From positions 1 to 52,515 of the IMG/VR virus record IMGVR_UViG_2724679237_000006: 52,515 bases of DNA, one strand, 5' to 3'. How positions within the stretch are numbered: the first letter of the stretch is position 1; each line of letters starts with the position of its first letter. Positions 2,851 to 35,837 of this stretch are shown here, piece by piece. The stretch comes from a virus. Its lineage: Duplodnaviria > Heunggongvirae > Uroviricota > Caudoviricetes. A model generated the notes under the pieces. That model did not search any database. It saw only the letters and a program-made list of their open reading frames with translations, and had not been told where the DNA came from. Made by a program: the position numbers and the translations under genes.

Positions 2851-4035
2851 ATGAGTGAAACTCGCTTTCATGGCGCCCGCGTTACGGAAAGTACCGACCT
2901 GGTAACAGCAATTAACGACGTTGATTCCAGCGTTATCGGTATCGTGGCAACGGCGGACGATGCGGACGCGAAGCTGTTCCCGCTGAACAAGCCTGCATTA
3001 GTGACCCGCGTCAATGACGTGCTGGGAAAATGCGGGACAACGGGGACGCTGTACCGTGCGCTGAAACCCATTGCAGACCAGGTGAGCACAAAGGTGATCG
3101 TCGTTCGCGTGGCTGAACACAAAGAAGAAGACGGAAAAACACAGGATCAACTGGTTATCGGTGGTTCTGAATCCGACGGCAGCTATACGGGGATGTATGC
3201 GCTGCTTGTTGCAGAGCAGGATGAAAGCATCGGATACCGTCCGCGTATTCTGGCCGCGCCGGGGCTGGACACGGAGGCGGTGACAAAATCCCTGTGCGTG
3301 ATTGCAGGTAAACTGCGCGCGTTTGTGTATGCCTCCTGTCATGGCTGTAACACGATGGCTGAAGCCATTGCATACCGTGAAAAATTCAACGAACGCGAGC
3401 TGATGCTCCTGTGGCCGGACTTCATCGCTTACAACCCGAAAAGTGGCGAGAATGAGGTTTTCCCCGCGCCAGCCTATGCGTGCGGCCTTCGTGCGTACAT
3501 TGACCATGAGCAGGGCTGGCACAAATCGCTGTCCAACGTTCCGGTCAAAAATGTGCTGGGGATGTCCAGGCATGTGTTCTGGTCGTTGCAGGCCGAAGAC
3601 AGCGATGCCAACAGCCTCAACAACAAAGAAATCACAACCATCATTCGCCGCAACGGGTTCCGCTTCTGGGGTAACCGTACGCCGGAAACGAACGCCTACA
3701 TTTTTGAGGTGTATACCCGAATCGCACAGGTGCTGGCTGACACGGTTGCGGAAGCGCAGTTTGAAACCATCGACAGTCCACTGACGCCTGCGAACGTGAA
3801 GGACGTCATCAGTGCCATCAGGGCAAAACTGGATTCGCTGGTTACTGCCGGGAAACTGATTGGCGCATCGTGCTGGTATGACATCGTGGATAACAGCACC
3901 ACAGAATTACGACAGGGGCGCGTGCGTATTCGCTATAAATATACGCCCGTTCCTCCGCTGGAAGATATGGAGCTTTACCAGGCGTTCACTGATGAGTTCT
4001 TTGGTCCTGCATTTGCAGTGCTTGGAGGTGCTTAA
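2851..4035 (+). CDS. FI: Tail sheath protein FI
   Basis: 394 aa; strong similarity to P2 FI as recalled (FPLNKP, KLRAF, RELM..WPDF, EQGWHK.LSNV, IRRDGFRFWGNRT, YTPVPPLE). Confidence 0.9.
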   Translation: MSETRFHGARVTESTDLVTAINDVDSSVIGIVATADDADAKLFPLNKPALVTRVNDVLGKCGTTGTLYRALKPIADQVSTKVIVVRVAEHKEEDGKTQDQLVIGGSESDGSYTGMYALLVAEQDESIGYRPRILAAPGLDTEAVTKSLCVIAGKLRAFVYASCHGCNTMAEAIAYREKFNERELMLLWPDFIAYNPKSGENEVFPAPAYACGLRAYIDHEQGWHKSLSNVPVKNVLGMSRHVFWSLQAEDSDANSLNNKEITTIIRRNGFRFWGNRTPETNAYIFEVYTRIAQVLADTVAEAQFETIDSPLTPANVKDVISAIRAKLDSLVTAGKLIGASCWYDIVDNSTTELRQGRVRIRYKYTPVPPLEDMELYQAFTDEFFGPAFAVLGGA

Positions 4036-4547
4036 TGGCCGTACCAAAACATCTTCGTTTTTTTACGCTGTTTGTGGATGGTGAAAATGAAGTGGGTAAG
4101 GTGACGTCTGTCACCCCGCCTAAACTGACGCGTAAAACCGACAGCTATCGTGGTGGTGGCATGCTGGGAGCGGTGAGTATCGACCTCGGCCTGGACGATT
4201 CCGCGCTTGATGCGAGTTTTGTCATGGGGGGCGCCGTTCGTGCGCTGTTCCTTAAATATGGCGGAACAATGGACGGCACGCTGCTGCGTTTTGCGGGTGA
4301 ATACTACACCGATGCAGAAAGCGACCTGTATGAAATCGAGATGCGCGGGCGTGTGACGGAAATTGATATGGGGGAGGCCAAACAGGGCGAAGCCACGTCA
4401 CACACTTACGCTGTCAAAAACACCTACTACAAGCTGAGTATTAACGATCGTCCGGTGTGGGAAATTGACCTGGTGAACCACATCTACCGGAAGGATGGCA
4501 AGGACATTGTACCCGACCGCATCCGTTCCGCGCTCGGGCTCGGCTGA
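4035..4547 (+). CDS. FII: Tail tube protein FII
   Basis: 170 aa immediately after FI (ATG overlaps the FI stop); size and position match P2 FII. Confidence 0.85.
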   Translation: MAVPKHLRFFTLFVDGENEVGKVTSVTPPKLTRKTDSYRGGGMLGAVSIDLGLDDSALDASFVMGGAVRALFLKYGGTMDGTLLRFAGEYYTDAESDLYEIEMRGRVTEIDMGEAKQGEATSHTYAVKNTYYKLSINDRPVWEIDLVNHIYRKDGKDIVPDRIRSALGLG

Positions 4548-4601
4548 TATGTAATATGCAGGCGGCGCAGTGCGTCGCCCCTGACTGAAAGGAGTTTTCT
4601 G

Positions 4602-4970
4602 ATGAAAGAGACGAAAAATACCGATACTGAAAACGCTGTGGTGGTTGCTGATACTGCGAAAGAAACCGGCGAGCGCGGCGTAAAACTTACCCAGCCAATT
4701 GAGCGAGGCGACGAAAAAATCACGTATGTGGAGATTACCGGGGCTATTGAGCAGGCTGGATCCCTGCGTGGTCTGTCGCTGTCTGATGTGCTGAGTCTGA
4801 AAGCGGAATCCATGTTTACGCTGTTGTCACGCGTGACATCACCGCGACTGGATGAAGTGACGATCAAAAAAATGGCATCCCGTGACTTTATTCAGTTATG
4901 TGTGGTTGCCGTAAATTTTTTGAGCGGTGCGGACTCTGGCGGGAAGAACGAACAGGCGACGGAAGCCTGA
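4602..4970 (+). CDS. E: Tail assembly chaperone E (zero-frame product)
   Basis: Small ORF between FII and tape measure; contains the slippery site at 4915-4921. Confidence 0.7.
   Translation: MKETKNTDTENAVVVADTAKETGERGVKLTQPIERGDEKITYVEITGAIEQAGSLRGLSLSDVLSLKAESMFTLLSRVTSPRLDEVTIKKMASRDFIQLCVVAVNFLSGADSGGKNEQATEA
4915..4921 (+). other. Programmed -1 ribosomal frameshift site (TTTTTTG) giving the E+E' fusion, ending at 5134
   Basis: TTTTTTG heptamer inside E; the -1 frame ORF 4898-5134 continues past the E stop, as in P2 E/E'. Confidence 0.7.
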
Positions 4971-5084
4971 TCACGGTTGTGTGCTTTGAGCACATAGAAG
5001 ACTTTGTGGCAGATATTGCCGTTATTTTTAACTGGTCGCCCGCCGAAATCTTCATGATGACGCCCGGCGAAGTGGTTAGCTGGC

Positions 5085-7922
5085 GTGAGCGGGCGGCACT
5101 TCGCAGTGGGAATGCAGACGATGAAGACTCTTGACATTCGGGTCGCCTTCAGTGCTGTTGACAGGCTGACCCGGCCAGCCGAAAACGCCCGCCGCCTGAT
5201 GGGACAGCTTGGTGACTCCATCCAGCGAACGCAGGGGGCGATCAAAAATCTCGAGCGTCAGGCGCGTTCATTTGAGCGCGCCCGCGATGCTGTCAGTAAA
5301 GCGGATGCTGGCATCGTGAAAGCACGACGCCAGCTTAACGCCCTTCATCAGTTACAACGCACGGGTACGGTGCTCAGCGAAAAACAACAAAAGCTGATGC
5401 AGCAGTTAAGCACCCGGCTTGAACGCCTGAATGAATCGCGCACACGGGAAATTCAGAAAATGCGGGAGCTTGGCGGAGAGCTTAAACGCCACGGTATTTC
5501 CCTGACAGGCAGCGATAACACCATCCAGCAGGCCATCAGACGCACCGAACAGTACAACAACCAGCTTGAACTCGAACGACAGGCGCTTGCGCGTGTAACG
5601 CGGGCGCGTGAGCAGTATTCACGCGCGCAGGAAACAGCGGGAAAACTGAAAACGGGTGGTGCGCTGGCAACTGGTGCGGCAGCGGCTGGCGGCTATGCTG
5701 CCGGGCGTTTTTTGCAGCCCGCTATCGGATTCGGGAAAGAGATGTCCCGTGTGCAGGCGCTGACGCGAATTGACCAGAACAGCCCGCAGTTTAAGGCGCT
5801 GCGTGAGCAGGCGCTAAAGCTCGGCTCTGAAACGCAGTTTACTGCGAGTGATGCCGCCAGTGGGCAGGCATTTCTTGCTATGGCTGGCTTCACACCAGAA
5901 GCCATTCAGGCTGCGCTTCCCGGCGTGCTGAGCATGGCAACGGCTGGCGGTATGGACCTTGGCGAGACGGCGGATATTGGCTCAAATATCCTGACGCAGT
6001 TCGGCCTCTCTGCTGACCAGATGGATCGGGTCGGCGACACACTTACTGCGGCGTTTACCCGTACTAACACCGACCTTCGCGCGCTGGGCGAAACCATGAA
6101 ATATGCAGGTCCGGTGGCGGGTAAGCTGGGAATATCGCTGGAGCAGGCCGCAGCGATGGCGGGCGTGCTGGCGAATATGGGTATCAGAGGGAGTGATGCC
6201 GGGACGGCAATGCGTGCCAGCCTTGCTCGTCTGGCATCACCGCCAAAGGCGGCGGCAGAGGCGCTGAAAGAGCTTGGTGTGGCTGTCTCTGATGCGAACG
6301 GCAAAATGCGCCCGATGGAGGATGTGCTGGCCGACCTTTATAAAGCCACCCGCAAATACGGGGAAGTTGACCGGGTATCGTTCTTTAAGGACATAGCCGG
6401 AGAAGAGGCCTTCACGTCATTTATGGCCCTCGTTGATGCGGCAGGTGACGGTTCCTTACCTAAACTGAGAAAAGAACTTGAAGGCGCGCGCGGTGAGGCT
6501 GAACGCACAGCAAAGGTTATGGCCAACAACCTTGACGGCGATCTGAAATCACTCGACAGTGCATGGGAAGGGTTGCGCATCCGCATTGCAGATCTGATTG
6601 ACGGTCCGCTGCGTTCTGTCACGCAGTGGCTCACGCGGGTGGTATCAAGGGTGACGGCGCTGGCGCAGGCCCATCCGGTACTGACGCGCCAGCTACTGAT
6701 AGCAGGCGGTGCGTTGCTGGCAATGACTGCAACGGTTGGCTCGTTGTCGCTGGCTATTGGTGTGCTTGCTGGCCCGCTGGCAAAACTGCGTCTTGGCTTT
6801 TCCCTCCTGACCGGTTCAATGAATGCTGTCAGGGTCCTGCCAGCACTATGGGGAATGGTGACGGGTTCCGTCTCTTTACTGGGAGGTGCTATCGGGGCGT
6901 TGTTCAGCCCGGTCGGTCTTATCGTAGCTGCGCTTGCCGGAGCTGCCGTTCTCATCTGGAAATACTGGGACCCAATCAGGGCATTTTTTGCCGGGGTGTT
7001 CAGCGGGATTATGGAGCGGCTGGCCCCGTTACGCGAAACCTTTGAACGGTTTGGCCCTGTTTTCGAACTGGTTCGTGATGGCGTGATTCAGGTCTTTAAC
7101 TGGTTTACATCGCTGCTGTCACCGATGGAATCCAGCAAGGAAACGCTGGATAAATGCACCAGTGCTGGCGAGGTATTCGGCAACGTTCTTGGCGGTGCGT
7201 TACAGCTTGTCCTGACGCCTGCCAAAATGCTGCTGGATACGCTGGCATGGATACTTGAAAAACTTGGTGTCCTTCCAGATGAAGCGGAAAGGGCGAGAAA
7301 GAAAATCGAAGACGCGCAGCGTGCGGCCATTCTTCAGGACAAGGTTGCTTTGCTTCAGGGGGACCTGGCAAAAATCAATCCGCCGAAGTCTGCGGAAACA
7401 GGGACCGGAGGCGATAAGCCTAAAGACAATAAGCCGCTCACGGACAACAACACTGGCACGCTACGCAGGCTCAGCAAAATTGCAGATAATACGGGCAAGC
7501 TGGTTGATGAGACGAAAAAGCGTATCGGCCCCGGTGATATTGTCTTTAAGAACCTGCCCCGTGCGCTTGCTGTTCGTGGGGAGTGGCAGGAGCGAAAGGT
7601 TGCGCAGAGCAACAAGGCTCTTCCTGCAATCAATATCACTCCCGCGCCCCCGGCTCCGTTATCTCCGGCGCTGCCCCCTGTTGTTGCAGCAAGCTCCCGT
7701 CCGGTCGTGGAGGCCGCACGTGCGCCAGTTGCGCCCGTTTCCGCATCTTCCCGCAGCCGGGAGGCTGCGACCCCCGGATTTGGTGGTGAAATTCATGTCC
7801 ATCTGCATAACGTTGTTACGCAGAATCCCCGCGAACTGGCGAAACTGGTCGGCGAAATGGTCAGGGCAGAACTGGAGCGGCGTACCCGTGCCGGGCGTGG
7901 CAGTTTTTACGATAAAGATTGA
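5085..7922 (+). CDS. T: Tail tape measure protein T
   Basis: 945 aa; coiled-coil N-terminus, Ala/Gly-rich hydrophobic central segments; position between E/E' and U. Confidence 0.85.
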   Translation: MSGRHFAVGMQTMKTLDIRVAFSAVDRLTRPAENARRLMGQLGDSIQRTQGAIKNLERQARSFERARDAVSKADAGIVKARRQLNALHQLQRTGTVLSEKQQKLMQQLSTRLERLNESRTREIQKMRELGGELKRHGISLTGSDNTIQQAIRRTEQYNNQLELERQALARVTRAREQYSRAQETAGKLKTGGALATGAAAAGGYAAGRFLQPAIGFGKEMSRVQALTRIDQNSPQFKALREQALKLGSETQFTASDAASGQAFLAMAGFTPEAIQAALPGVLSMATAGGMDLGETADIGSNILTQFGLSADQMDRVGDTLTAAFTRTNTDLRALGETMKYAGPVAGKLGISLEQAAAMAGVLANMGIRGSDAGTAMRASLARLASPPKAAAEALKELGVAVSDANGKMRPMEDVLADLYKATRKYGEVDRVSFFKDIAGEEAFTSFMALVDAAGDGSLPKLRKELEGARGEAERTAKVMANNLDGDLKSLDSAWEGLRIRIADLIDGPLRSVTQWLTRVVSRVTALAQAHPVLTRQLLIAGGALLAMTATVGSLSLAIGVLAGPLAKLRLGFSLLTGSMNAVRVLPALWGMVTGSVSLLGGAIGALFSPVGLIVAALAGAAVLIWKYWDPIRAFFAGVFSGIMERLAPLRETFERFGPVFELVRDGVIQVFNWFTSLLSPMESSKETLDKCTSAGEVFGNVLGGALQLVLTPAKMLLDTLAWILEKLGVLPDEAERARKKIEDAQRAAILQDKVALLQGDLAKINPPKSAETGTGGDKPKDNKPLTDNNTGTLRRLSKIADNTGKLVDETKKRIGPGDIVFKNLPRALAVRGEWQERKVAQSNKALPAINITPAPPAPLSPALPPVVAASSRPVVEAARAPVAPVSASSRSREAATPGFGGEIHVHLHNVVTQNPRELAKLVGEMVRAELERRTRAGRGSFYDKD

Positions 7923-31340: not shown

Positions 31341-31544
31341 TTAGCTGTTAGCCAAAGCGTCTTTTAACATCGCCACAAGGTTTACTTCAGGCTTTTCCAT
31401 TTTGGCGCGTTTGGGTCGGATAATAATTCGACCGTCAGCCAACATCTTTTTGCATGTATTAAGAGGGATACCTGTTATCTCTGCATATTTCTGCAGGGAT
31501 ACATAGGGGGCATTCACATTGATATTGATGGTTATACCTGACAT
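31341..31544 (-). CDS. Small HTH DNA-binding protein (Cox/Apl/CII-like regulator candidate)
   Basis: 67 aa; LQKYAEITGIPLNTCKKMLADGRI looks like an HTH. Confidence 0.45.
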   Translation of the reverse strand: MSGITININVNAPYVSLQKYAEITGIPLNTCKKMLADGRIIIRPKRAKMEKPEVNLVAMLKDALANS

Positions 31545-31560: not shown

Positions 31561-31767
31561 TCAGGAAGATTTGTTTTGTTCTTTCTGGGTTAGCTCTAGG
31601 CCGCGAAGGAAGATCATGCGCGCCATGTTAGAGGATGAGCGTTGTTCTTTAGCTGCCATTTCATCAATGACGGCTCGCTCCTCGAGGGACAGCCGAAGTG
31701 CCAGTCTTGGACCTGTGGCGGTGTTACGCGGAATGCGTGATCTGGTATCGTGAAGAACTTGTTTCAT
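31561..31767 (-). CDS. Ribbon-helix-helix (CopG/Arc-like) regulator, first gene of early operon
   Basis: 68 aa; LRLSLEERAVIDEMAAKEQRSSSNMARMIFLRGLE fits the RHH pattern. Divergent from the C-like repressor gene. Confidence 0.5.
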   Translation of the reverse strand: MKQVLHDTRSRIPRNTATGPRLALRLSLEERAVIDEMAAKEQRSSSNMARMIFLRGLELTQKEQNKSS

Positions 31768-31809
31768 AGTGATATATTGTGATCATCTAATAGCTCGTGA
31801 AATCATTTT

Positions 31810-31827
31810 GGTATCAAAAAAGATACC
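31810..31827. promoter_or_regulatory. Perfect palindrome ggtatc-aaaaaa-gatacc in the divergent early/repressor promoter region
   Basis: 18-bp dyad 15 bp upstream of the repressor start codon; candidate operator. Confidence 0.45.
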
Positions 31828-31842
31828 TGTCAAGGTTTTTGT

Positions 31843-32247
31843 ATGAAAAATGATATTGGTCAGAGGTTGCGTGAGGAAAGGGAAAGATTGGGACTTAGTC
31901 AAGTTGCTATGAGCGACATTGGTGGAGTCAAAAAGCTAACTCAGCTTAGATATGAGAAAGGAGATAGCTTTCCTGATGCTGCGTATTTGGCAGCGCTGTC
32001 TCGTTTTGGCCTTGATGTTCAGTATGTTGTGTTGGGAATTCACTCACCTGAAACTTATAACGATGATGAGCAGGAGTTGATTACTCGCTTTCGAGCAGCT
32101 TCGTTAGATGTGAAAAACGCGGTGATCGGGGCTTTAAAAGGTGCGGCCAGTGAAAAGGAAACTCAGCCATCAGGACGTGAGTTAAATATTTCTGGCGGTA
32201 ATAACCGTATCGCTGGGCGTGACTATAACGAAACTAAGGGTAGGTGA
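31843..32247 (+). CDS. Immunity repressor, XRE-family HTH (C/CI-like)
   Basis: N-terminal HTH (LREERERLGLSQVAMSDIGGVKKLTQLRYEKGDSFP); divergent from the early operon and on the same strand as integrase, as for P2 C. Confidence 0.65.
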   Translation: MKNDIGQRLREERERLGLSQVAMSDIGGVKKLTQLRYEKGDSFPDAAYLAALSRFGLDVQYVVLGIHSPETYNDDEQELITRFRAASLDVKNAVIGALKGAASEKETQPSGRELNISGGNNRIAGRDYNETKGR

Positions 32248-32262
32248 TAGTAGGGAGGTGAC

Positions 32263-32913
32263 ATGGCCGTCAACTCAAACGGTTCAAACAATCGCGTTGC
32301 TGGGCGTGATTTTCACGAAAAGAATATTCAGATAGGGCGATATGATGGTTCTCATACCGTCAATATCGCAATCCCTTCGAATAATGATGATGACGATCGC
32401 CCTTTGCTTAAGGCTCAGCGTAAGGAGCTAAATAGCTTGGTTGCTGCTATTGCAGAAGCTAGCAATACTGAAGCGTTTATTATTTGGCAAAAAGTACATG
32501 CGGAGATTGGTGTAGCTGGTATTGATGATATGACAGTAAATCAATATAAAACAGCGGAGAGTTTTCTGCATGCAATGCTTGAGCGATGTAAAGATCATGA
32601 TGCCTGTAAGGCTCTTGTAAGTTTATTACTACGTAACAGTGAAGACTGTGGACTTCGACAAAAACTTCTGCGGTATTGCCATATCAATTTCGGTACAGGA
32701 CGTTTAAACGATCTTACTCGTTCTCAGTTGCAGTCTGCATTGTCGTGGTTAGAGCAACAATCGGTATCAAGCAACACAGAGAATTCGACCTTACCAGAAG
32801 TCCGACTTCGTGCTTCAGAATTAATCCGACTTTATCCAAAAGAAATAATATTCTTTATCTGCGTAGGGGGGGTGGTAGGTGGTGCCATTTCTAGGATGTT
32901 TTTTAATTTGTAA
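32263..32913 (+). CDS. Hypothetical protein with C-terminal TM anchor (cargo gene between repressor and integrase)
   Basis: 216 aa; N-terminus repeats the motif NNR(V)AGRD(F)HE found at the repressor C-terminus; C-terminal hydrophobic segment IIFFICVGGVVGGAI. Confidence 0.45.
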   Translation: MAVNSNGSNNRVAGRDFHEKNIQIGRYDGSHTVNIAIPSNNDDDDRPLLKAQRKELNSLVAAIAEASNTEAFIIWQKVHAEIGVAGIDDMTVNQYKTAESFLHAMLERCKDHDACKALVSLLLRNSEDCGLRQKLLRYCHINFGTGRLNDLTRSQLQSALSWLEQQSVSSNTENSTLPEVRLRASELIRLYPKEIIFFICVGGVVGGAISRMFFNL

Positions 32914-32942
32914 TCTTACTTGAGCTAAATTGAGGTAATGGT

Positions 32943-33290
32943 ATGAAAGTAAAAAATGTTCAACTATTAGTTACTTTTTTATCTATGTTTTCTTTTTCTG
33001 CCGTCGCAATGCCTTTTAAAAATATTGAACGTGAGAGTTTCAATGGGGTATGGCCATTTAATACTGATGAGGTTCAGTTACAGTGTCTAGATGGTAATCC
33101 TTATGTGATGAATTTTGACGATAATAAGTTATATGCGCTTACAGGTTTGGCTCGAATAAAAGGTAAAACATTTGGTGCGTTACCGTTAGATAACAATAAT
33201 CCATTTTGGCTGGATAATGATGCCGCCCCAGGGTTAAAAAAGAATCTGGGAGATGTCACTAAGGCTGCATTTGATTTATGTGATAAGTAA
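32943..33290 (+). CDS. Small secreted protein of unknown function (cargo gene)
   Basis: 115 aa with signal peptide (LLVTFLSMFSFSAVA); AT-rich coding sequence. Confidence 0.45.
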   Translation: MKVKNVQLLVTFLSMFSFSAVAMPFKNIERESFNGVWPFNTDEVQLQCLDGNPYVMNFDDNKLYALTGLARIKGKTFGALPLDNNNPFWLDNDAAPGLKKNLGDVTKAAFDLCDK

Positions 33291-33295
33291 CTAAA

Positions 33296-34297
33296 ATGTC
33301 GGTTCGTAAGATTCCATCAGGTAAATGGCTTTGCGAATGTTATCCTTACGGGGCATCGGGAAAACGTATTCGTAAACAGTTTGCGACAAAAAGTGAGGCG
33401 CTCTCTTATGAGCGCCGTTTAATGAATAGTAGAGTTGGAGACGAGTTTCAAGATGGTTCTGGTCCTCGTCTTTCTGAGTTGGTTGCTCGTTGGTTTGAGA
33501 TGTACGGTAAAACCTTGTCCTCTGGTGCAGAGCGCAAAGTCAAACTTGAGTCTATTTGTTCCAGGCTGGGAGATCCATTTGCTTCTCAGTTTGACAAAAA
33601 TATGTTTGCTACTTATCGGGAAAGGAGGTTATCAGGAGAATGGAATCCCAAGGGGAAGAAAAAACTTAGTGAAGCAACCGTTAATCGCGAGCAGTCATAT
33701 CTACATGCTGTTTTTGCCGAACTGAAGCGCCTTGGGGAGTGGTCTGGTGAAAACCCCCTGACTGGCATTCGCAAGTTTCGTGAGGAAGAAAAGGAATTGG
33801 CGTTTCTGTATGTAGATGAGATTGAACGCCTTCTGATTGCGTGTGATGAGTCACGGAATAAAGATTTGGGGGTTGTTGTCCGTATTGGGCTTGCGACTGG
33901 TGCTCGGTGGAGTGAAGCTGAAGGATTAAAGCAATCTCAAGTGCTGCCCGGTCGAATCACATTTGTTAAAACTAAAGGAAAGAAGAACCGCACTGTACCG
34001 ATTTCACCTCAATTGCAGGCTATGCTTCCTAAAAAACGAGGAGCGTTATTTTCACCATGTTATGAGGCTTTTGACGCTGCAATTAAGAGAGCGAAGATCG
34101 AGCTTCCTGATGGGCAATTAACTCATGTGCTACGTCACACGTTTGCCAGTCATTTTATGATGCGGGGAGGAAATATTCTTGTGTTGCAAAAAATACTGGG
34201 GCATAGCGATATAAAAATGACTATGCGTTATGCGCATTTTGCTCCAGGTCATTTAGAGGCTGCAGTTGAATTGAACCCTTTTGACAATAGAGGGTAA
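33296..34297 (+). CDS. int: Tyrosine integrase, P2 Int-like
   Basis: 333 aa; GKRIRK.F..KSEA, GARWSEA, RITFVKTK..K.RTVPIS, LRHTFASHFMM.GG.I..LQ.ILGH....MTMRYAHFAP match P2 Int as recalled, including catalytic R..H..R..Y. Confidence 0.9.
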   Translation: MSVRKIPSGKWLCECYPYGASGKRIRKQFATKSEALSYERRLMNSRVGDEFQDGSGPRLSELVARWFEMYGKTLSSGAERKVKLESICSRLGDPFASQFDKNMFATYRERRLSGEWNPKGKKKLSEATVNREQSYLHAVFAELKRLGEWSGENPLTGIRKFREEEKELAFLYVDEIERLLIACDESRNKDLGVVVRIGLATGARWSEAEGLKQSQVLPGRITFVKTKGKKNRTVPISPQLQAMLPKKRGALFSPCYEAFDAAIKRAKIELPDGQLTHVLRHTFASHFMMRGGNILVLQKILGHSDIKMTMRYAHFAPGHLEAAVELNPFDNRG

Positions 34298-34403: not shown

Positions 34404-34458
34404 TTTAAAATCCCTCGGCGTTCGCGCTGTGCGGGTTCAAGTCCCGCTCCGGGTACCA
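34404..34458 (+). other. 55-nt 3' fragment of a tRNA-Leu gene (anticodon loop to CCA), an attachment-site core
   Basis: tttaaaatccctcggcgttcgcgctgtgcgggttcaagtcccgctccgggtacca matches the 3' portion of an enterobacterial tRNA-Leu (UAA, leuZ-type) as recalled; upstream sequence cannot form the acceptor and D arms. Confidence 0.75.
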
Positions 34459-34502
34459 TGGGAAAGATAAGAATAAAATCAAAGCAATAAGCAGTGTCGT
34501 GA

Positions 34503-34588: not shown

Positions 34589-35605
34589 TCATTTTCTCTG
34601 GCCACCAACTACGGGCACTACTTTAACTTTCCGGTCATATGCTGCTGTCTGTCGCGGGTTCTTATGCCCGGAAATTGCTTGCTTCTCTTCCAGGCTGCCT
34701 TCCAGATCAGAGATACCTTTTGCTTTCAGATCATGAAATGTGAAGTCTATTTGCAGATGAGGATATTTTTCCTGTGCTGCCGCTTTGACATCACGCCAAC
34801 GAGAGTTAAAACCATCACGGGTATACTTGCCACCGGTAGTTTGATGAATCACAAACAGGCTACTGATTCCCGTTTTTAATGGCAGAGAACGAGCCAGAGC
34901 TATCGCTTTCTGCAGACGAGGCGACCAGGCTTTGATTTGCTTAACGCCGGTTTTTCCCTGACGAATGTAGATCCCGGAATCGAACAGCTGGTCTTTCTGC
35001 AATGAAAGTACATCACTCTGTCTGGCCACGCATAAGTAGGCAATCTCCATTGCTACGCGAACAACATCAGGAGACACTTCATAAACGGCCTGATATTCTT
35101 CATCCGTAATATAACGTTCGCGAGCTTTCTCTTTAAACTGTTTAACTCCCTGACAAGGATTCCTCTGAACATAACCTCGTTCATAACCCCAACGGAATAC
35201 CCGGGACATAAAGCTTTTTTCCCTGTTTGCCTGAGTTCGGCTTGATAAACCGCGTTGATCCATATAGCGCCGAATATGTTCAGGTTTGATTTTATCCGGG
35301 TCGATCTTCCCGAAGACAGGCAGAACTTTTCCGGAATATTTTGTGTAGTCTTTCCGGGTTTCGACTGCCAAATCCATAAAATCAGGGGAGGTCATGAATT
35401 GTTCCGTGAGCGCCTGAAAAGTATTTCTTTCTTTTTCGTCACCGACCGCTTTTTCATATGCCAGCCATACGGCTGATCGTGGTGCATCCAATGCGCACAG
35501 GCGTATCGCTTTGTTATCTTTATTCCTGAATTCGTAGGCCGCTTTGCCCTGGTAAACACGAGGCGGCATCCAGTTATCTGCTGGGTTCTTTCTCTTTCCG
35601 GCCAT
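34589..35605 (-). CDS. int: Tyrosine integrase (lambda Int family) of a second element
   Basis: ORF 34589-35635; N-terminal arm-binding-like MAGKRKNP..NWMPPRVY and C-terminal catalytic region (HDLKAKGISD...GH....TAAYDR). Confidence 0.85.
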   Translation of the reverse strand: MAGKRKNPADNWMPPRVYQGKAAYEFRNKDNKAIRLCALDAPRSAVWLAYEKAVGDEKERNTFQALTEQFMTSPDFMDLAVETRKDYTKYSGKVLPVFGKIDPDKIKPEHIRRYMDQRGLSSRTQANREKSFMSRVFRWGYERGYVQRNPCQGVKQFKEKARERYITDEEYQAVYEVSPDVVRVAMEIAYLCVARQSDVLSLQKDQLFDSGIYIRQGKTGVKQIKAWSPRLQKAIALARSLPLKTGISSLFVIHQTTGGKYTRDGFNSRWRDVKAAAQEKYPHLQIDFTFHDLKAKGISDLEGSLEEKQAISGHKNPRQTAAYDRKVKVVPVVGGQRK

Positions 35606-35837
35606 TAAATATTGCTCCAAAATCAGGTTCATCATCTTTTCGCGTCGTCACCTCCTGTAAATTGCGAAATTTTATTGGGTTCATGAAATGGCCCCAGGTT
35701 GTTTTTGGGTGTCCGTCAGCCCTTTCCATGAAGAAAATTCCAGCCCGGCGAAGAGCCTCACATTGCTTTGATTTAAGTGGGCTTCCCGTCAGCTCGACCA
35801 TTTCTTCTCTGGTGATTATGTCGTGATCGCTTTTCAT
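35574..35837 (-). CDS. Excisionase-like / small DNA-binding protein
   Basis: 87-aa ORF immediately upstream of and overlapping int; ITREEMVELTGSPLKSKQCEALRRAG is HTH-like. Confidence 0.4.
   Translation of the reverse strand: MKSDHDIITREEMVELTGSPLKSKQCEALRRAGIFFMERADGHPKTTWGHFMNPIKFRNLQEVTTRKDDEPDFGAIFNGRKEKEPSR

What the first reader, a model, noticed from the sequence alone, without database searches (positions are those of the whole stretch)
32203..33290. Cargo genes inserted between repressor and integrase, with a duplicated 14-codon motif spanning the gene junction
In P2 the repressor and int genes are adjacent as I recall; here two extra AT-rich genes sit between them (a TM-anchored protein and a small secreted protein). 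The repressor C-terminus (SGGNNRIAGRDYNE, nt 32203-32244) is nearly repeated at the N-terminus of the next protein (NGSNNRVAGRDFHE, nt 32281-32322), suggesting a duplication or recombination scar. These could be lysogenic-conversion or exclusion genes.
Basis: seen in the sequence. Interest (0 to 1): 0.5.

Follow-up and report, generated by a model that had tools for sequence, protein, structure and literature searches.

The report
Prophage repressor and membrane partner share motif
The "duplicated" peptide is not a recombination scar: the prophage's repressor ends with the same short motif that begins the membrane-anchored protein encoded next to it. The two copies change together across many phages, which suggests a so far undescribed, possibly amyloid-like, way of wiring a phage's lysogeny switch to the cell membrane.

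Summary
The repeat is real: repressor residues 114-130 (nt 32182-32232) and ORF216 residues 3-19 (nt 32269-32319) share 10 of 17 residues (Gumbel p about 6e-5). It occurs nowhere else in the window.

ORF216 (Flk_N helical domain plus a C-terminal membrane anchor) is not cargo. It is the constant downstream partner of this repressor family in P2-like prophages, and such partners also occur in Mu-like ones, including the model phages B3, BcepMu and KS10. Only the third gene, ORF115 (a secreted DUF2511/YebY-like protein, 35% GC), sits in a variable slot before int.

The key result is that the repressor's tail and the partner's N-terminus carry the same ~17-25-residue Gly/Asn/Gln-rich motif in each phage, and the motif differs between lineages. 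Across 23 lineages, cognate similarity was 44.6 against 23.7 for non-cognate pairs, and 0 of 100,000 permutations reached the observed value. Half of the identical residues use different codons, so selection acts on the peptide. Both motifs lie in predicted disordered termini.

This architecture mirrors amyloid-signalling motif pairs (HET-S/NWD2, BASS, Bab/Agp). I infer a direct motif-to-motif contact through which the membrane partner controls the repressor. Fibril formation and function are untested.

The parts
31341..31544 (-). Cox-like excisionase/repressor gene of the divergent early (lytic) operon
   Evidence: phrog_575 E 1.2e-27
31561..31767 (-). Arc-like small regulator, first gene of the early operon
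   Evidence: phrog_3431 E 9.8e-29. It is annotated in phage 520873 but not by PGAP in the E. coli genome.
31768..31842 (.). Switch region between the divergent operons. It holds a promoter-like site on the minus strand (31833-31805) and 18-nt repeats (31807-31824, 31837-31854) that could be operators.
   Evidence: assigning the repeats as operators is inference
31843..32247 (+). Immunity-type XRE-family repressor, 134 aa. It has an HTH (residues 1-64), helices 74-103 and a disordered tail 104-134.
   Evidence: HTH_31/HTH_3 hits below the Pfam cut-off; phrog_8 E 3e-14. AF2 pLDDT is above 80 for residues 1-103 and about 45 for the tail. Homologues are annotated as repressor in B3, KS10 and BcepMu.
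32182..32232 (+). C-terminal tail motif LNISGGNNRIAGRDYNE of the repressor
   Evidence: conserved as [IV]N[IV][ST]GxxNR[IV]AGRD[YF][NH]E in about 50 enterobacterial repressors
32245..32262 (+). Junction: TGA TAG TAG stops, then GGAGG ribosome-binding site 6 nt before the ATG. The two ORFs are in the same frame, and no terminator lies between them.
32263..32913 (+). ORF216, the repressor's partner: N-terminal motif, Flk_N helical domain and a C-terminal membrane tail anchor
   Evidence: PF27202 Flk_N on all homologues. NCBIfam Flk E 4e-16 over residues 36-169, far below the equivalog cut-off. phrog_5825 E 6e-101. AF2 model.
32269..32319 (+). N-terminal motif VNSNGSNNRVAGRDFHE of ORF216, matching the repressor tail
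   Evidence: S5, G7, N10, R11, R15, D16 and E19 are invariant in 20 homologues of 57-84% identity. The region is predicted disordered, pLDDT 41-51.
32410..32775 (+). Helical Flk_N domain (residues 50-171)
32812..32904 (+). C-terminal transmembrane helix (residues 184-214)
32943..33290 (+). ORF115, a secreted DUF2511 (YebY-like) protein; the actual cargo/moron in the variable slot before int
   Evidence: Pfam DUF2511 25.7 bits, above the 21-bit cut-off. phrog_2950 E 5e-39. YebY 7n0j E 0.009. GC 0.348. The slot's content varies.
33296..34297 (+). Tyrosine integrase
   Evidence: Int_N E 8.5e-32, Phage_integrase E 2.5e-22
34404..34500 (+). Attachment-site core: the 3' part of a tRNA-like sequence, with no complete tRNA
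   Evidence: It matches the attP annotation of phage mEp390. ARAGORN finds no tRNA.

Best explanation
The window carries a two-gene immunity module, not a repressor plus two cargo genes. The prophage repressor (HTH, dimerisation-type helices, disordered tail) is co-transcribed with a cytoplasm-facing, tail-anchored inner-membrane protein, ORF216.

The last structured element of the repressor and the first of ORF216 are the same ~17-residue Gly/Asn-rich motif (..N.SG..NR[IV]AGRD[YF].E). I propose that the two copies recognise each other directly through homotypic beta-strand pairing, possibly amyloid-like templating as in HET-S/NWD2, BASS and Bab/Agp pairs. In that model the membrane partner tethers, sequesters or converts the repressor. 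It would thereby couple a membrane or envelope signal to the lysogeny switch.

By position the motif arrangement matches known pairs: the protein with the N-terminal motif is the sensor and the one with the C-terminal motif is the responder.

Shown: conservation, gene adjacency, lineage-specific co-variation, selection at the peptide level, predicted disorder of both motifs, and the membrane anchor. Inferred: co-transcription, physical contact, the direction of signalling, and the outcome (induction versus stabilisation).

ORF115 (secreted, DUF2511/YebY-like) is an unrelated moron in the variable slot between this module and int.
For: (1) The repressor-then-Flk_N gene order holds in every P2-like relative read (Klebsiella, Enterobacter and two other E. 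coli immunity types). The gene before int varies among a 288-292-aa protein, DUF8087, nothing, or DUF2511.

(2) Homologous repressors (invariant RL[RK]EERER) in Mu-like prophages of Pectobacterium, Gilliamella and Pseudomonas are also followed by Flk_N-type partners.

(3) The motif differs between lineages but matches within each pair. Examples: QIFNGDISGQFAGNQIIN | QEFNGTAQGQFSSRDIIN (Pectobacterium); TVDYGNAQIGQASAGDIVN | TVSFGGAQIDQAAAGDINN (Jeongeupia); GISVTGDGNRTAGRDFHE | IEVTGSNNIVAGRDFIE (phage B3).

(4) Statistics over 23 lineage representatives: cognate score 44.6 against non-cognate 23.7 (sd 8.2). Twelve of 23 cognates rank first (binomial 4e-11). None of 100,000 permutations reaches the observed sum. 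Repressor homologues without a tail show no match and serve as negative controls.

(5) In 33 pairs, 159 of 308 identical aligned residues use different codons. In the window it is 6 of 10. The similarity is therefore selected at the peptide level, not copied as DNA.

(6) Pairing persists when the partner's body is not Flk_N: multi-pass membrane proteins (B3 ORF20, L020, L039, L044, L054, L056, L069), TM plus a periplasmic Cys domain (BcepMu gp18, L025, L026, L029), or soluble proteins (L040, L051, L076, L086). The motif therefore tracks the repressor tail, not a pocket in the partner's domain.

(7) Both motifs are predicted disordered next to well-folded domains.

(8) Composition is G 14.6%, N 7.4%, Q 7.4%, L 1.7%, P 2.5%. 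Two Comamonas pairs carry the RHIM/BASS3 core G-phi-Q-phi-G in both members (GSVQIG | GGIQVG; GSVQVG | GNLQVG) (signature quoted from Dyrka et al.).

(9) An amyloid motif pair on adjacent genes has been shown to work in E. coli (Bab/Agp, bioRxiv 10.1101/2024.11.07.622273).

(10) No terminator lies between the two genes, and a GGAGG site precedes ORF216.
Against: There is no experimental or structural evidence of contact.

The window's own motif (NR[IV]AGRD) does not carry the G-phi-Q-phi-G core, and I could not match it to any defined BASS family. It contains charged residues (R, D, E), and I ran no amyloid-propensity predictor.

Known amyloid-signalling pairs link a sensor to a cell-death effector, not to a transcription factor.

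Two tail-bearing Lysobacter repressors (L035, L036) have no detectable partner. One Gilliamella pair (L020) matches only weakly (rank 15 of 23).

That ORF 31843-32247 is the immunity repressor rests on position and homologue annotation; its Pfam HTH hits are below the gathering cut-offs.
Confidence: 0.58

Rival explanations
1. Mimicry for a third party. The two motifs do not touch each other but compete for one binding site. That site could be on a host protease or adaptor (degron competition, as lambda CIII protects CII from FtsH). It could instead be on the repressor's own folded core, so that ORF216 tunes repressor stability or oligomerisation as a decoy.
For: Both motifs are terminal and disordered, as degrons and docking peptides usually are. 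The membrane location of ORF216 would suit a membrane protease. Part of the Flk_N domain resembles the Red-beta C-terminal three-helix bundle, which binds a C-terminal peptide of SSB. A core AG[RG]D[IVFY]xN is shared by many lineages on the partner side.
Against: A conserved host factor would predict one conserved motif, not lineage-specific variants that match within each pair. Pairing survives replacement of the Flk_N body by unrelated membrane or soluble domains, so a pocket in that domain is not required. The variant in which the pocket lies in the repressor core is not excluded.
Confidence: 0.2
2. ORF216 is an independent lysogen-expressed membrane protein (superinfection exclusion or lysogenic conversion, like lambda RexB, SieB or HK97 gp15). 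It merely travels with the repressor, and the shared motif has some role unrelated to repressor control.
For: It sits in the lysogenic operon, as exclusion genes do. phrog_6521, a weak hit, is labelled 'moron ... membrane protein'. Genes next to the repressor of Mu-like Pseudomonas phages are known exclusion factors (my own recollection of Tip and Aqs1, not checked here).
Against: This does not explain why the N-terminus tracks the repressor tail across 23 lineages. There is no PADLOC hit. The linkage to the repressor is constant across unrelated phage types (P2-like and Mu-like), while true cargo in the next slot turns over.
Confidence: 0.12
3. One reading: a duplication or recombination scar (or a module-exchange linker) left when cargo was inserted between the repressor and int, with no function of its own.
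For: The two copies lie 87 nt apart and in the same reading frame. The cI-int interval is a known insertion hotspot in K139-like phages.
Against: Both copies are under purifying selection in their own families. Six of the 10 identical residues are encoded by different codons, and only an 11-nt stretch is identical at the DNA level. The same pairing, with different sequences, recurs in distant phages.
Confidence: 0.03

Closest known systems
Amyloid signalling motif gene pairs: fungal HET-S/NWD2, bacterial Bell/NLR BASS1-10 (Dyrka et al., bioRxiv 10.1101/2020.01.06.895854) and E. coli Bab/Agp BASS11 (bioRxiv 10.1101/2024.11.07.622273)
   Same: The genes are adjacent. A ~20-residue motif sits at the C-terminus of the upstream product and at the N-terminus of the downstream product. 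The motif is more alike within a pair than between pairs. It is Gly/Asn/Gln-rich, poor in Pro and Leu, and predicted disordered in the monomer. Some pairs in this family carry the RHIM/BASS3 core G-phi-Q-phi-G on both sides.
   Different: The C-terminal-motif protein is a DNA-binding repressor, not a pore-forming death effector. The N-terminal-motif protein is a small membrane-anchored helical protein, not an NLR or TPR sensor. The setting is the immunity region of temperate phages, not a defence island. Fibril formation is untested, and the window's motif fits no named BASS family.
Flk (RflH), the tail-anchored flagellar export regulator of Salmonella and E. coli
   Same: It has the Flk_N helical domain (PF27202; NCBIfam PRK10715 E 4e-16 over residues 36-169) and a single C-terminal transmembrane anchor facing the cytoplasm.
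   Different: ORF216 scores 59 bits against a 353-bit equivalog cut-off and is 216 rather than about 330 aa. It lacks Flk's long Pro/Gln-rich regions. True Flk representatives begin MQP..SG and have no repressor-like motif. Flk is chromosomal and unlinked to a repressor.
Repressor-int lysogeny operons of P2-related phages, and the cI-int hotspot of K139-like phages (Rousset et al. 2022, PMC9122126)
   Same: The repressor and int are co-oriented and divergent from a Cox-type early operon. A variable slot in front of int is filled with accessory genes, here the DUF2511 gene.
   Different: In this group a fixed partner gene lies between the repressor and the variable slot. The accessory genes seen here are not recognised defence systems.
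Regulators controlled by a membrane protein or by an adjacent modulator (Mlc-PtsG sequestration, RseA-sigmaE, ImmR/ImmA of ICEBs1); cited from my own knowledge as functional analogies only
   Same: A DNA-binding regulator is controlled by a dedicated partner, which is membrane-bound or encoded next to it.
   Different: None of these uses a sequence motif duplicated on both partners, and there is no homology.

Membership tests
Amyloid signalling motif (ASM/BASS-type) gene pair | Short motif at the C-terminus of one protein and the N-terminus of the product of the adjacent gene | tested here: met
   Window: nt 32182-32232 and 32269-32319, with the genes 15 nt apart. The same layout occurs in 23 lineages.
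Amyloid signalling motif (ASM/BASS-type) gene pair | Motifs are more similar within a pair than between pairs (pair-specific co-variation) | tested here: met
   Cognate 44.6 against non-cognate 23.7; 12 of 23 rank first; 0 of 100,000 permutations reach the observed sum.
Amyloid signalling motif (ASM/BASS-type) gene pair | Sequence matches a defined motif family (for example the G-phi-Q-phi-G core of RHIM/PP/BASS3) | tested here: not met
   The window motif NR[IV]AGRD lacks this core. The core is present on both sides only in the Comamonas pairs L076 and L086. Profiles of BASS1-11 were not available to me.
Amyloid signalling motif (ASM/BASS-type) gene pair | One partner is an NLR/STAND-type or other sensor and the other is a membrane-targeting cell-death effector | tested here: not met
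   The partners are an HTH repressor and an Flk_N tail-anchored protein.
Amyloid signalling motif (ASM/BASS-type) gene pair | The motif forms cross-beta fibrils and templates its partner (ThT/Congo red, EM, foci, prion-like spread) | not testable with these tools
   Only indirect support: disorder in the monomer models and composition.
Flk_N domain family (Pfam PF27202) | Significant match to the Flk_N profile | tested here: met
   PF27202 is precomputed for the homologues, including a 96%-identical one. My local Pfam copy lacks the model. NCBIfam Flk matches residues 36-169 at E 4e-16.
Flk orthologue (NCBIfam PRK10715 equivalog) | Whole-protein score above the curated cut-off (353 bits) | tested here: not met
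   59.2 bits; only 134 of 339 profile positions are matched.
Accessory (moron) gene in the repressor-int hotspot of P2-related phages | Variable gene content between conserved flanking genes in related prophages | tested here: met
   This applies to ORF115 only. The slot holds DUF2511, DUF8087, a 288-292-aa protein (BRCT hit) or nothing. ORF216 fails this test because it is constant.
DUF2511 / YebY family | Pfam score above the gathering cut-off | tested here: met
   25.7 bits against a 21-bit cut-off. YebY 7n0j E 0.009.
Known anti-phage defence systems (PADLOC-DB) | Match of ORF216 or ORF115 to a defence protein model | tested here: not met
   No hit at E up to 0.1.
XRE-family phage immunity repressor | HTH domain, and a position divergent from the early lytic operon | tested here: inconclusive
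   Pfam HTH hits are below the cut-offs (23.3 against 27 bits), but phrog_8 gives E 3e-14. The AF2 five-helix HTH fold has pLDDT above 90. The gene is divergent from the Arc-like and Cox-like genes. Homologues are annotated as repressor in B3 and KS10. Repressor activity was not tested.

The most novel reading that the evidence does not exclude
A prion-like switch for lysogeny. On a membrane or envelope cue, the membrane-anchored partner folds its N-terminal motif into a cross-beta seed. That seed templates the identical motif on the repressor's tail. The repressor is pulled into an insoluble or membrane-bound polymer, and the prophage is irreversibly derepressed. Motif sequence would set immunity-type specificity. 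This would extend amyloid signalling from cell-death effectors to transcription factors, and would give P2-like and Mu-like phages (B3, BcepMu, KS10 included) an induction route independent of RecA-mediated cleavage.
Probability: 0.3. Interest if true: 0.92.

Novelty: new variant of a known kind. Interest (0 to 1): 0.8.

Why it matters
How non-lambdoid temperate phages sense when to leave the host is largely unknown. A repressor physically matched to a membrane-anchored partner, and in some lineages to one with a periplasmic domain, would be a direct line from the envelope to the genetic switch.

If the contact is amyloid-like, it would be the first case of amyloid signalling acting on a transcription factor. 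It would also be only the second bacterial system of the kind to be worked out in E. coli.

The module is common: this allele alone is in 514 of 5426 complete E. coli genomes. It is also present in tractable phages (B3, BcepMu, KS10), so the hypothesis can be tested at once.

For annotation, the gene after the repressor in these prophages should not be counted as cargo or as a 'flagella biosynthesis regulator'.

Tried and rejected
- A fused repressor+ORF216 AlphaFold run, to see whether the motifs pair. MAFFT aligned the partners' N-motif onto the repressor tail in A4, which illustrates the homology but is not a test.
- The search for related loci with the diverse partner alignment A2 failed because it has no conserved 7-10-column stretch. 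The repressor alignment A3 worked instead.
- The third homologous-protein search, with A2, returned almost only the enterobacterial proteins already seen.
- PADLOC gave nothing for ORF216 or ORF115. The local Pfam copy gave only chance-level hits for ORF216 (ELYS, zf-P11), and none for eight partner proteins of other lineages (one further partner, L029, had only a sub-cutoff DUF2284 hit). A profile search of the PDB gave nothing for ORF216.
- Structural neighbours of the Flk_N domain (Red-beta CTD, NinB, Sak, ORF6C, DnaD-like) are small helical bundles with weak scores. I do not build on them.
- Read-through or fusion of the two in-frame ORFs: rejected, because there are three consecutive stops, no roughly 350-aa fusion appeared among the homologues, and the same-frame arrangement is not conserved outside the P2-like group.
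- Gene conversion as the cause of the similarity: rejected on codon evidence.
- Literature searches for a repressor, HTH or prophage link to amyloid motifs, for Flk_N, and for BcepMu gp18 found nothing relevant.
Full report
**What is there**

The window holds a P2-family prophage. It is 99% identical to Escherichia phage 520873 (Peduoviridae, Xuanwuvirus) and is integrated next to yecA in other E. coli genomes.

On the + strand, four ORFs follow each other:
- an XRE-type repressor (31843-32247, 134 aa);
- ORF216 (32263-32913);
- ORF115 (32943-33290);
- a tyrosine integrase (33296-34297).

They diverge from an Arc-like gene (31561-31767) and a Cox-like gene (31341-31544) on the minus strand. 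A partial tRNA-like att core follows int.

LNISGGNNRIAGRDYNE (nt 32182-32232) near the end of the repressor matches VNSNGSNNRVAGRDFHE (nt 32269-32319) at the start of ORF216. Ten of 17 residues are identical. The local score is 62, against 29 +/- 4.6 in shuffles (Gumbel p 5.6e-5). The DNA copies are 76% identical over 34 nt. The motif occurs nowhere else in the six frames of the window.

**ORF216 is not cargo**

Its homologues carry Pfam PF27202 (Flk_N), a model newer than my local Pfam copy, and it hits the NCBIfam Flk model over residues 36-169 only. AlphaFold gives a disordered N-terminus (residues 1-45, pLDDT 41-51), a confident helical domain (50-171) and a C-terminal transmembrane helix (184-214). 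This is the tail-anchored layout of Flk.

The order repressor, then Flk_N gene, is constant in every P2-like relative I read: Klebsiella, Enterobacter and two other E. coli immunity types. The next gene, in front of int, changes. It is a 288-292-aa protein (with a BRCT hit), DUF8087, nothing, or DUF2511 as here.

GC content agrees. ORF115 is 34.8% GC, whereas ORF216 (41.3%) resembles the repressor, the Cox-like gene and int. ORF115 is a secreted DUF2511/YebY-like protein (YebY: PMC8689200). It fits the published idea of a repressor-int hotspot in P2-related phages (PMC9122126). In E. coli, this repressor/ORF216 allele is in 514 of 5426 complete genomes, and ORF115 is in 505.

**Both copies of the motif are conserved**

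In 20 ORF216 homologues of 57-84% identity, S5, G7, N10, R11, R15, D16 and E19 are invariant. About 50 enterobacterial repressors with quite different DNA-binding parts end in [IV]N[IV][ST]GxxNR[IV]AGRD[YF][NH]ExKK.

**The motif co-varies**

More distant repressors of the same family (invariant RL[RK]EERER) have other Gly/Asn/Gln-rich tails followed by a basic end. They sit in Mu-like transposable prophages, and they too are followed by a partner whose N-terminus mirrors the tail:
- Pectobacterium: QIFNGDISGQFAGNQIIN | QEFNGTAQGQFSSRDIIN
- Gilliamella: GQIAGGNIY | EQIAGRDIY
- Pseudomonas: QQFNGPVGTVTSGDVVN | QQFHDRVHQVAAGDIKN

.

A scan of one genome per species with the repressor profile gave 80 loci. 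Wherever a tail is present, the downstream product matches it. Examples are Jeongeupia (TVDYGNAQIGQASAGDIVN | TVSFGGAQIDQAAAGDINN), Aeromonas, Bordetella, Stutzerimonas, Comamonas and others. Homologues without a tail, such as a Pseudomonas chromosomal paralogue, show no match.

The model phages B3 (ORF18 | ORF20), BcepMu (gp17 | gp18) and KS10 (gp13 | gp12) carry such pairs too.

With one representative for each of 23 lineages:
- the cognate score is 44.6 against 23.7 (sd 8.2) for non-cognate combinations;
- 12 of 23 cognates rank first (binomial 4e-11);
- none of 100,000 permutations reaches the observed sum.

In 33 pairs, 159 of 308 identical aligned residues are encoded by different codons; in the window it is 6 of 10. 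The likeness is therefore kept by selection on the peptide, not by recent DNA copying.

**What the partner looks like elsewhere**

Most partners are Flk_N plus a tail anchor. Others are multi-pass membrane proteins (B3 ORF20, L020, L039, L044, L054, L056, L069). Some have a TM helix plus a small periplasmic Cys-containing domain (BcepMu gp18, L025, L026, L029). A few are soluble (L040, L051, L076, L086). None of those scanned passed a Pfam family cut-off. The N-terminal motif keeps tracking the repressor tail regardless of the body behind it.

The Flk_N family is small: 137 representatives at 50% identity among 1.84 billion. It includes true Flk proteins, which lack the motif.

**Mechanism**

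The repressor model has a well-folded HTH and helical part (residues 1-103) and a disordered tail. The partner's motif is likewise disordered.

Two terminal, disordered, mutually matching, lineage-specific motifs on the products of adjacent genes are the hallmark of amyloid signalling pairs. These are HET-S/NWD2 in fungi, Bell/NLR BASS motifs in bacteria, and Bab/Agp in E. coli, where the mechanism was demonstrated.

The composition here is G 14.6%, N and Q 7.4% each, L 1.7% and P 2.5%. Two Comamonas pairs carry the RHIM/BASS3 core G-phi-Q-phi-G on both sides (signature).

I therefore favour direct homotypic contact between the two motifs, by which the membrane partner controls the repressor. 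By analogy with known pairs, the N-terminal-motif protein is the sensor and the C-terminal-motif protein is the responder. The likely result is sequestration or inactivation of the repressor, and hence induction.

All of this is inference. Contact, fibril formation, the cue and the outcome are untested, and the window's NR[IV]AGRD motif fits no named BASS family.

**Rivals**

*Competition of both motifs for a third binding site.* The site could be a protease or adaptor, or the repressor core. This is possible, but a conserved host factor would not predict lineage-specific matching, and a pocket in the Flk_N domain is not required.

*An independent exclusion protein.* This leaves the co-variation unexplained, and there is no PADLOC hit.

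*A recombination scar.* This is contradicted by conservation, codon divergence and recurrence.

**Known or new**

Literature searches found no link between phage repressors and such motifs, and nothing on Flk_N partners or BcepMu gp18. I rate the finding as a new variant of a known kind: a motif-pair architecture of the amyloid-signalling type, applied to a prophage immunity module.

Noticed in passing
window 31561-31767 (-) versus 31616-31753 (+): The Arc-like ORF on the minus strand (phrog_3431, E 1e-28) is annotated in phage 520873. In the identical E. coli chromosome segment, PGAP instead annotates a 45-aa ORF on the opposite strand. This is probably a mis-annotation in RefSeq genomes.
   Followed up: partly
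window 34589-35635 (-): A second tyrosine-integrase-like ORF (348 aa) points towards the att core directly after the P2-like prophage. In the other E. coli genomes read, yecA follows instead. This suggests a second element integrated in tandem at the same site.
   Followed up: no
window 32245-32262: The repressor and ORF216 are in the same reading frame, separated by three consecutive stop codons (TGA TAG TAG) and three sense codons. The same-frame arrangement recurs in the P2-like relatives (L002, L006, L097, L101) but not in most Mu-like ones.
   Followed up: partly
window 31802-31854: 18-nt direct repeats (31807-31824, 31837-31854; spacing 30) and an overlapping imperfect inverted repeat lie in the 75-nt switch region, across the minus-strand promoter-like site and the repressor start codon. 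They are candidate operators.
   Followed up: no
L002:4647-5513 (Klebsiella) and L101:4159-5037 (Enterobacter): In these relatives the variable slot before int holds a 288-292-aa protein. The Klebsiella protein's N-terminus hits the BRCT domain (E 5e-5, above the Pfam cut-off), which is unusual for a prophage accessory gene.
   Followed up: partly
L025:3426-4415, L026:3423-4400, L029:3402-4322, L106:2163-2945 (BcepMu gp18): These longer partners share a periplasmic C-terminal mini-domain after the TM helix, with two conserved Cys (C.F/Y.GK.Y/F..G ... .C.). It has no Pfam match and could be a sensing module.
   Followed up: no
window 32263-32376 (ORF216 residues 1-38): After the shared motif, the partner has two further short, nearly invariant beta-like segments (NIQI and HTVNIAIP) that the repressor tail lacks. 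GRDFHEKNIQI and GRYDGSHTVNIAI look like a degenerate internal repeat, reminiscent of the two pseudo-repeats of HET-s.
   Followed up: no
L001 (phage 520873, NC_049344) 3748-5217: In the deposited phage genome, ORF216 matches in four pieces, the integrase is split into two CDS, and ORF216 and ORF115 are unannotated. Frameshift-type sequencing errors in that record are likely.
   Followed up: partly
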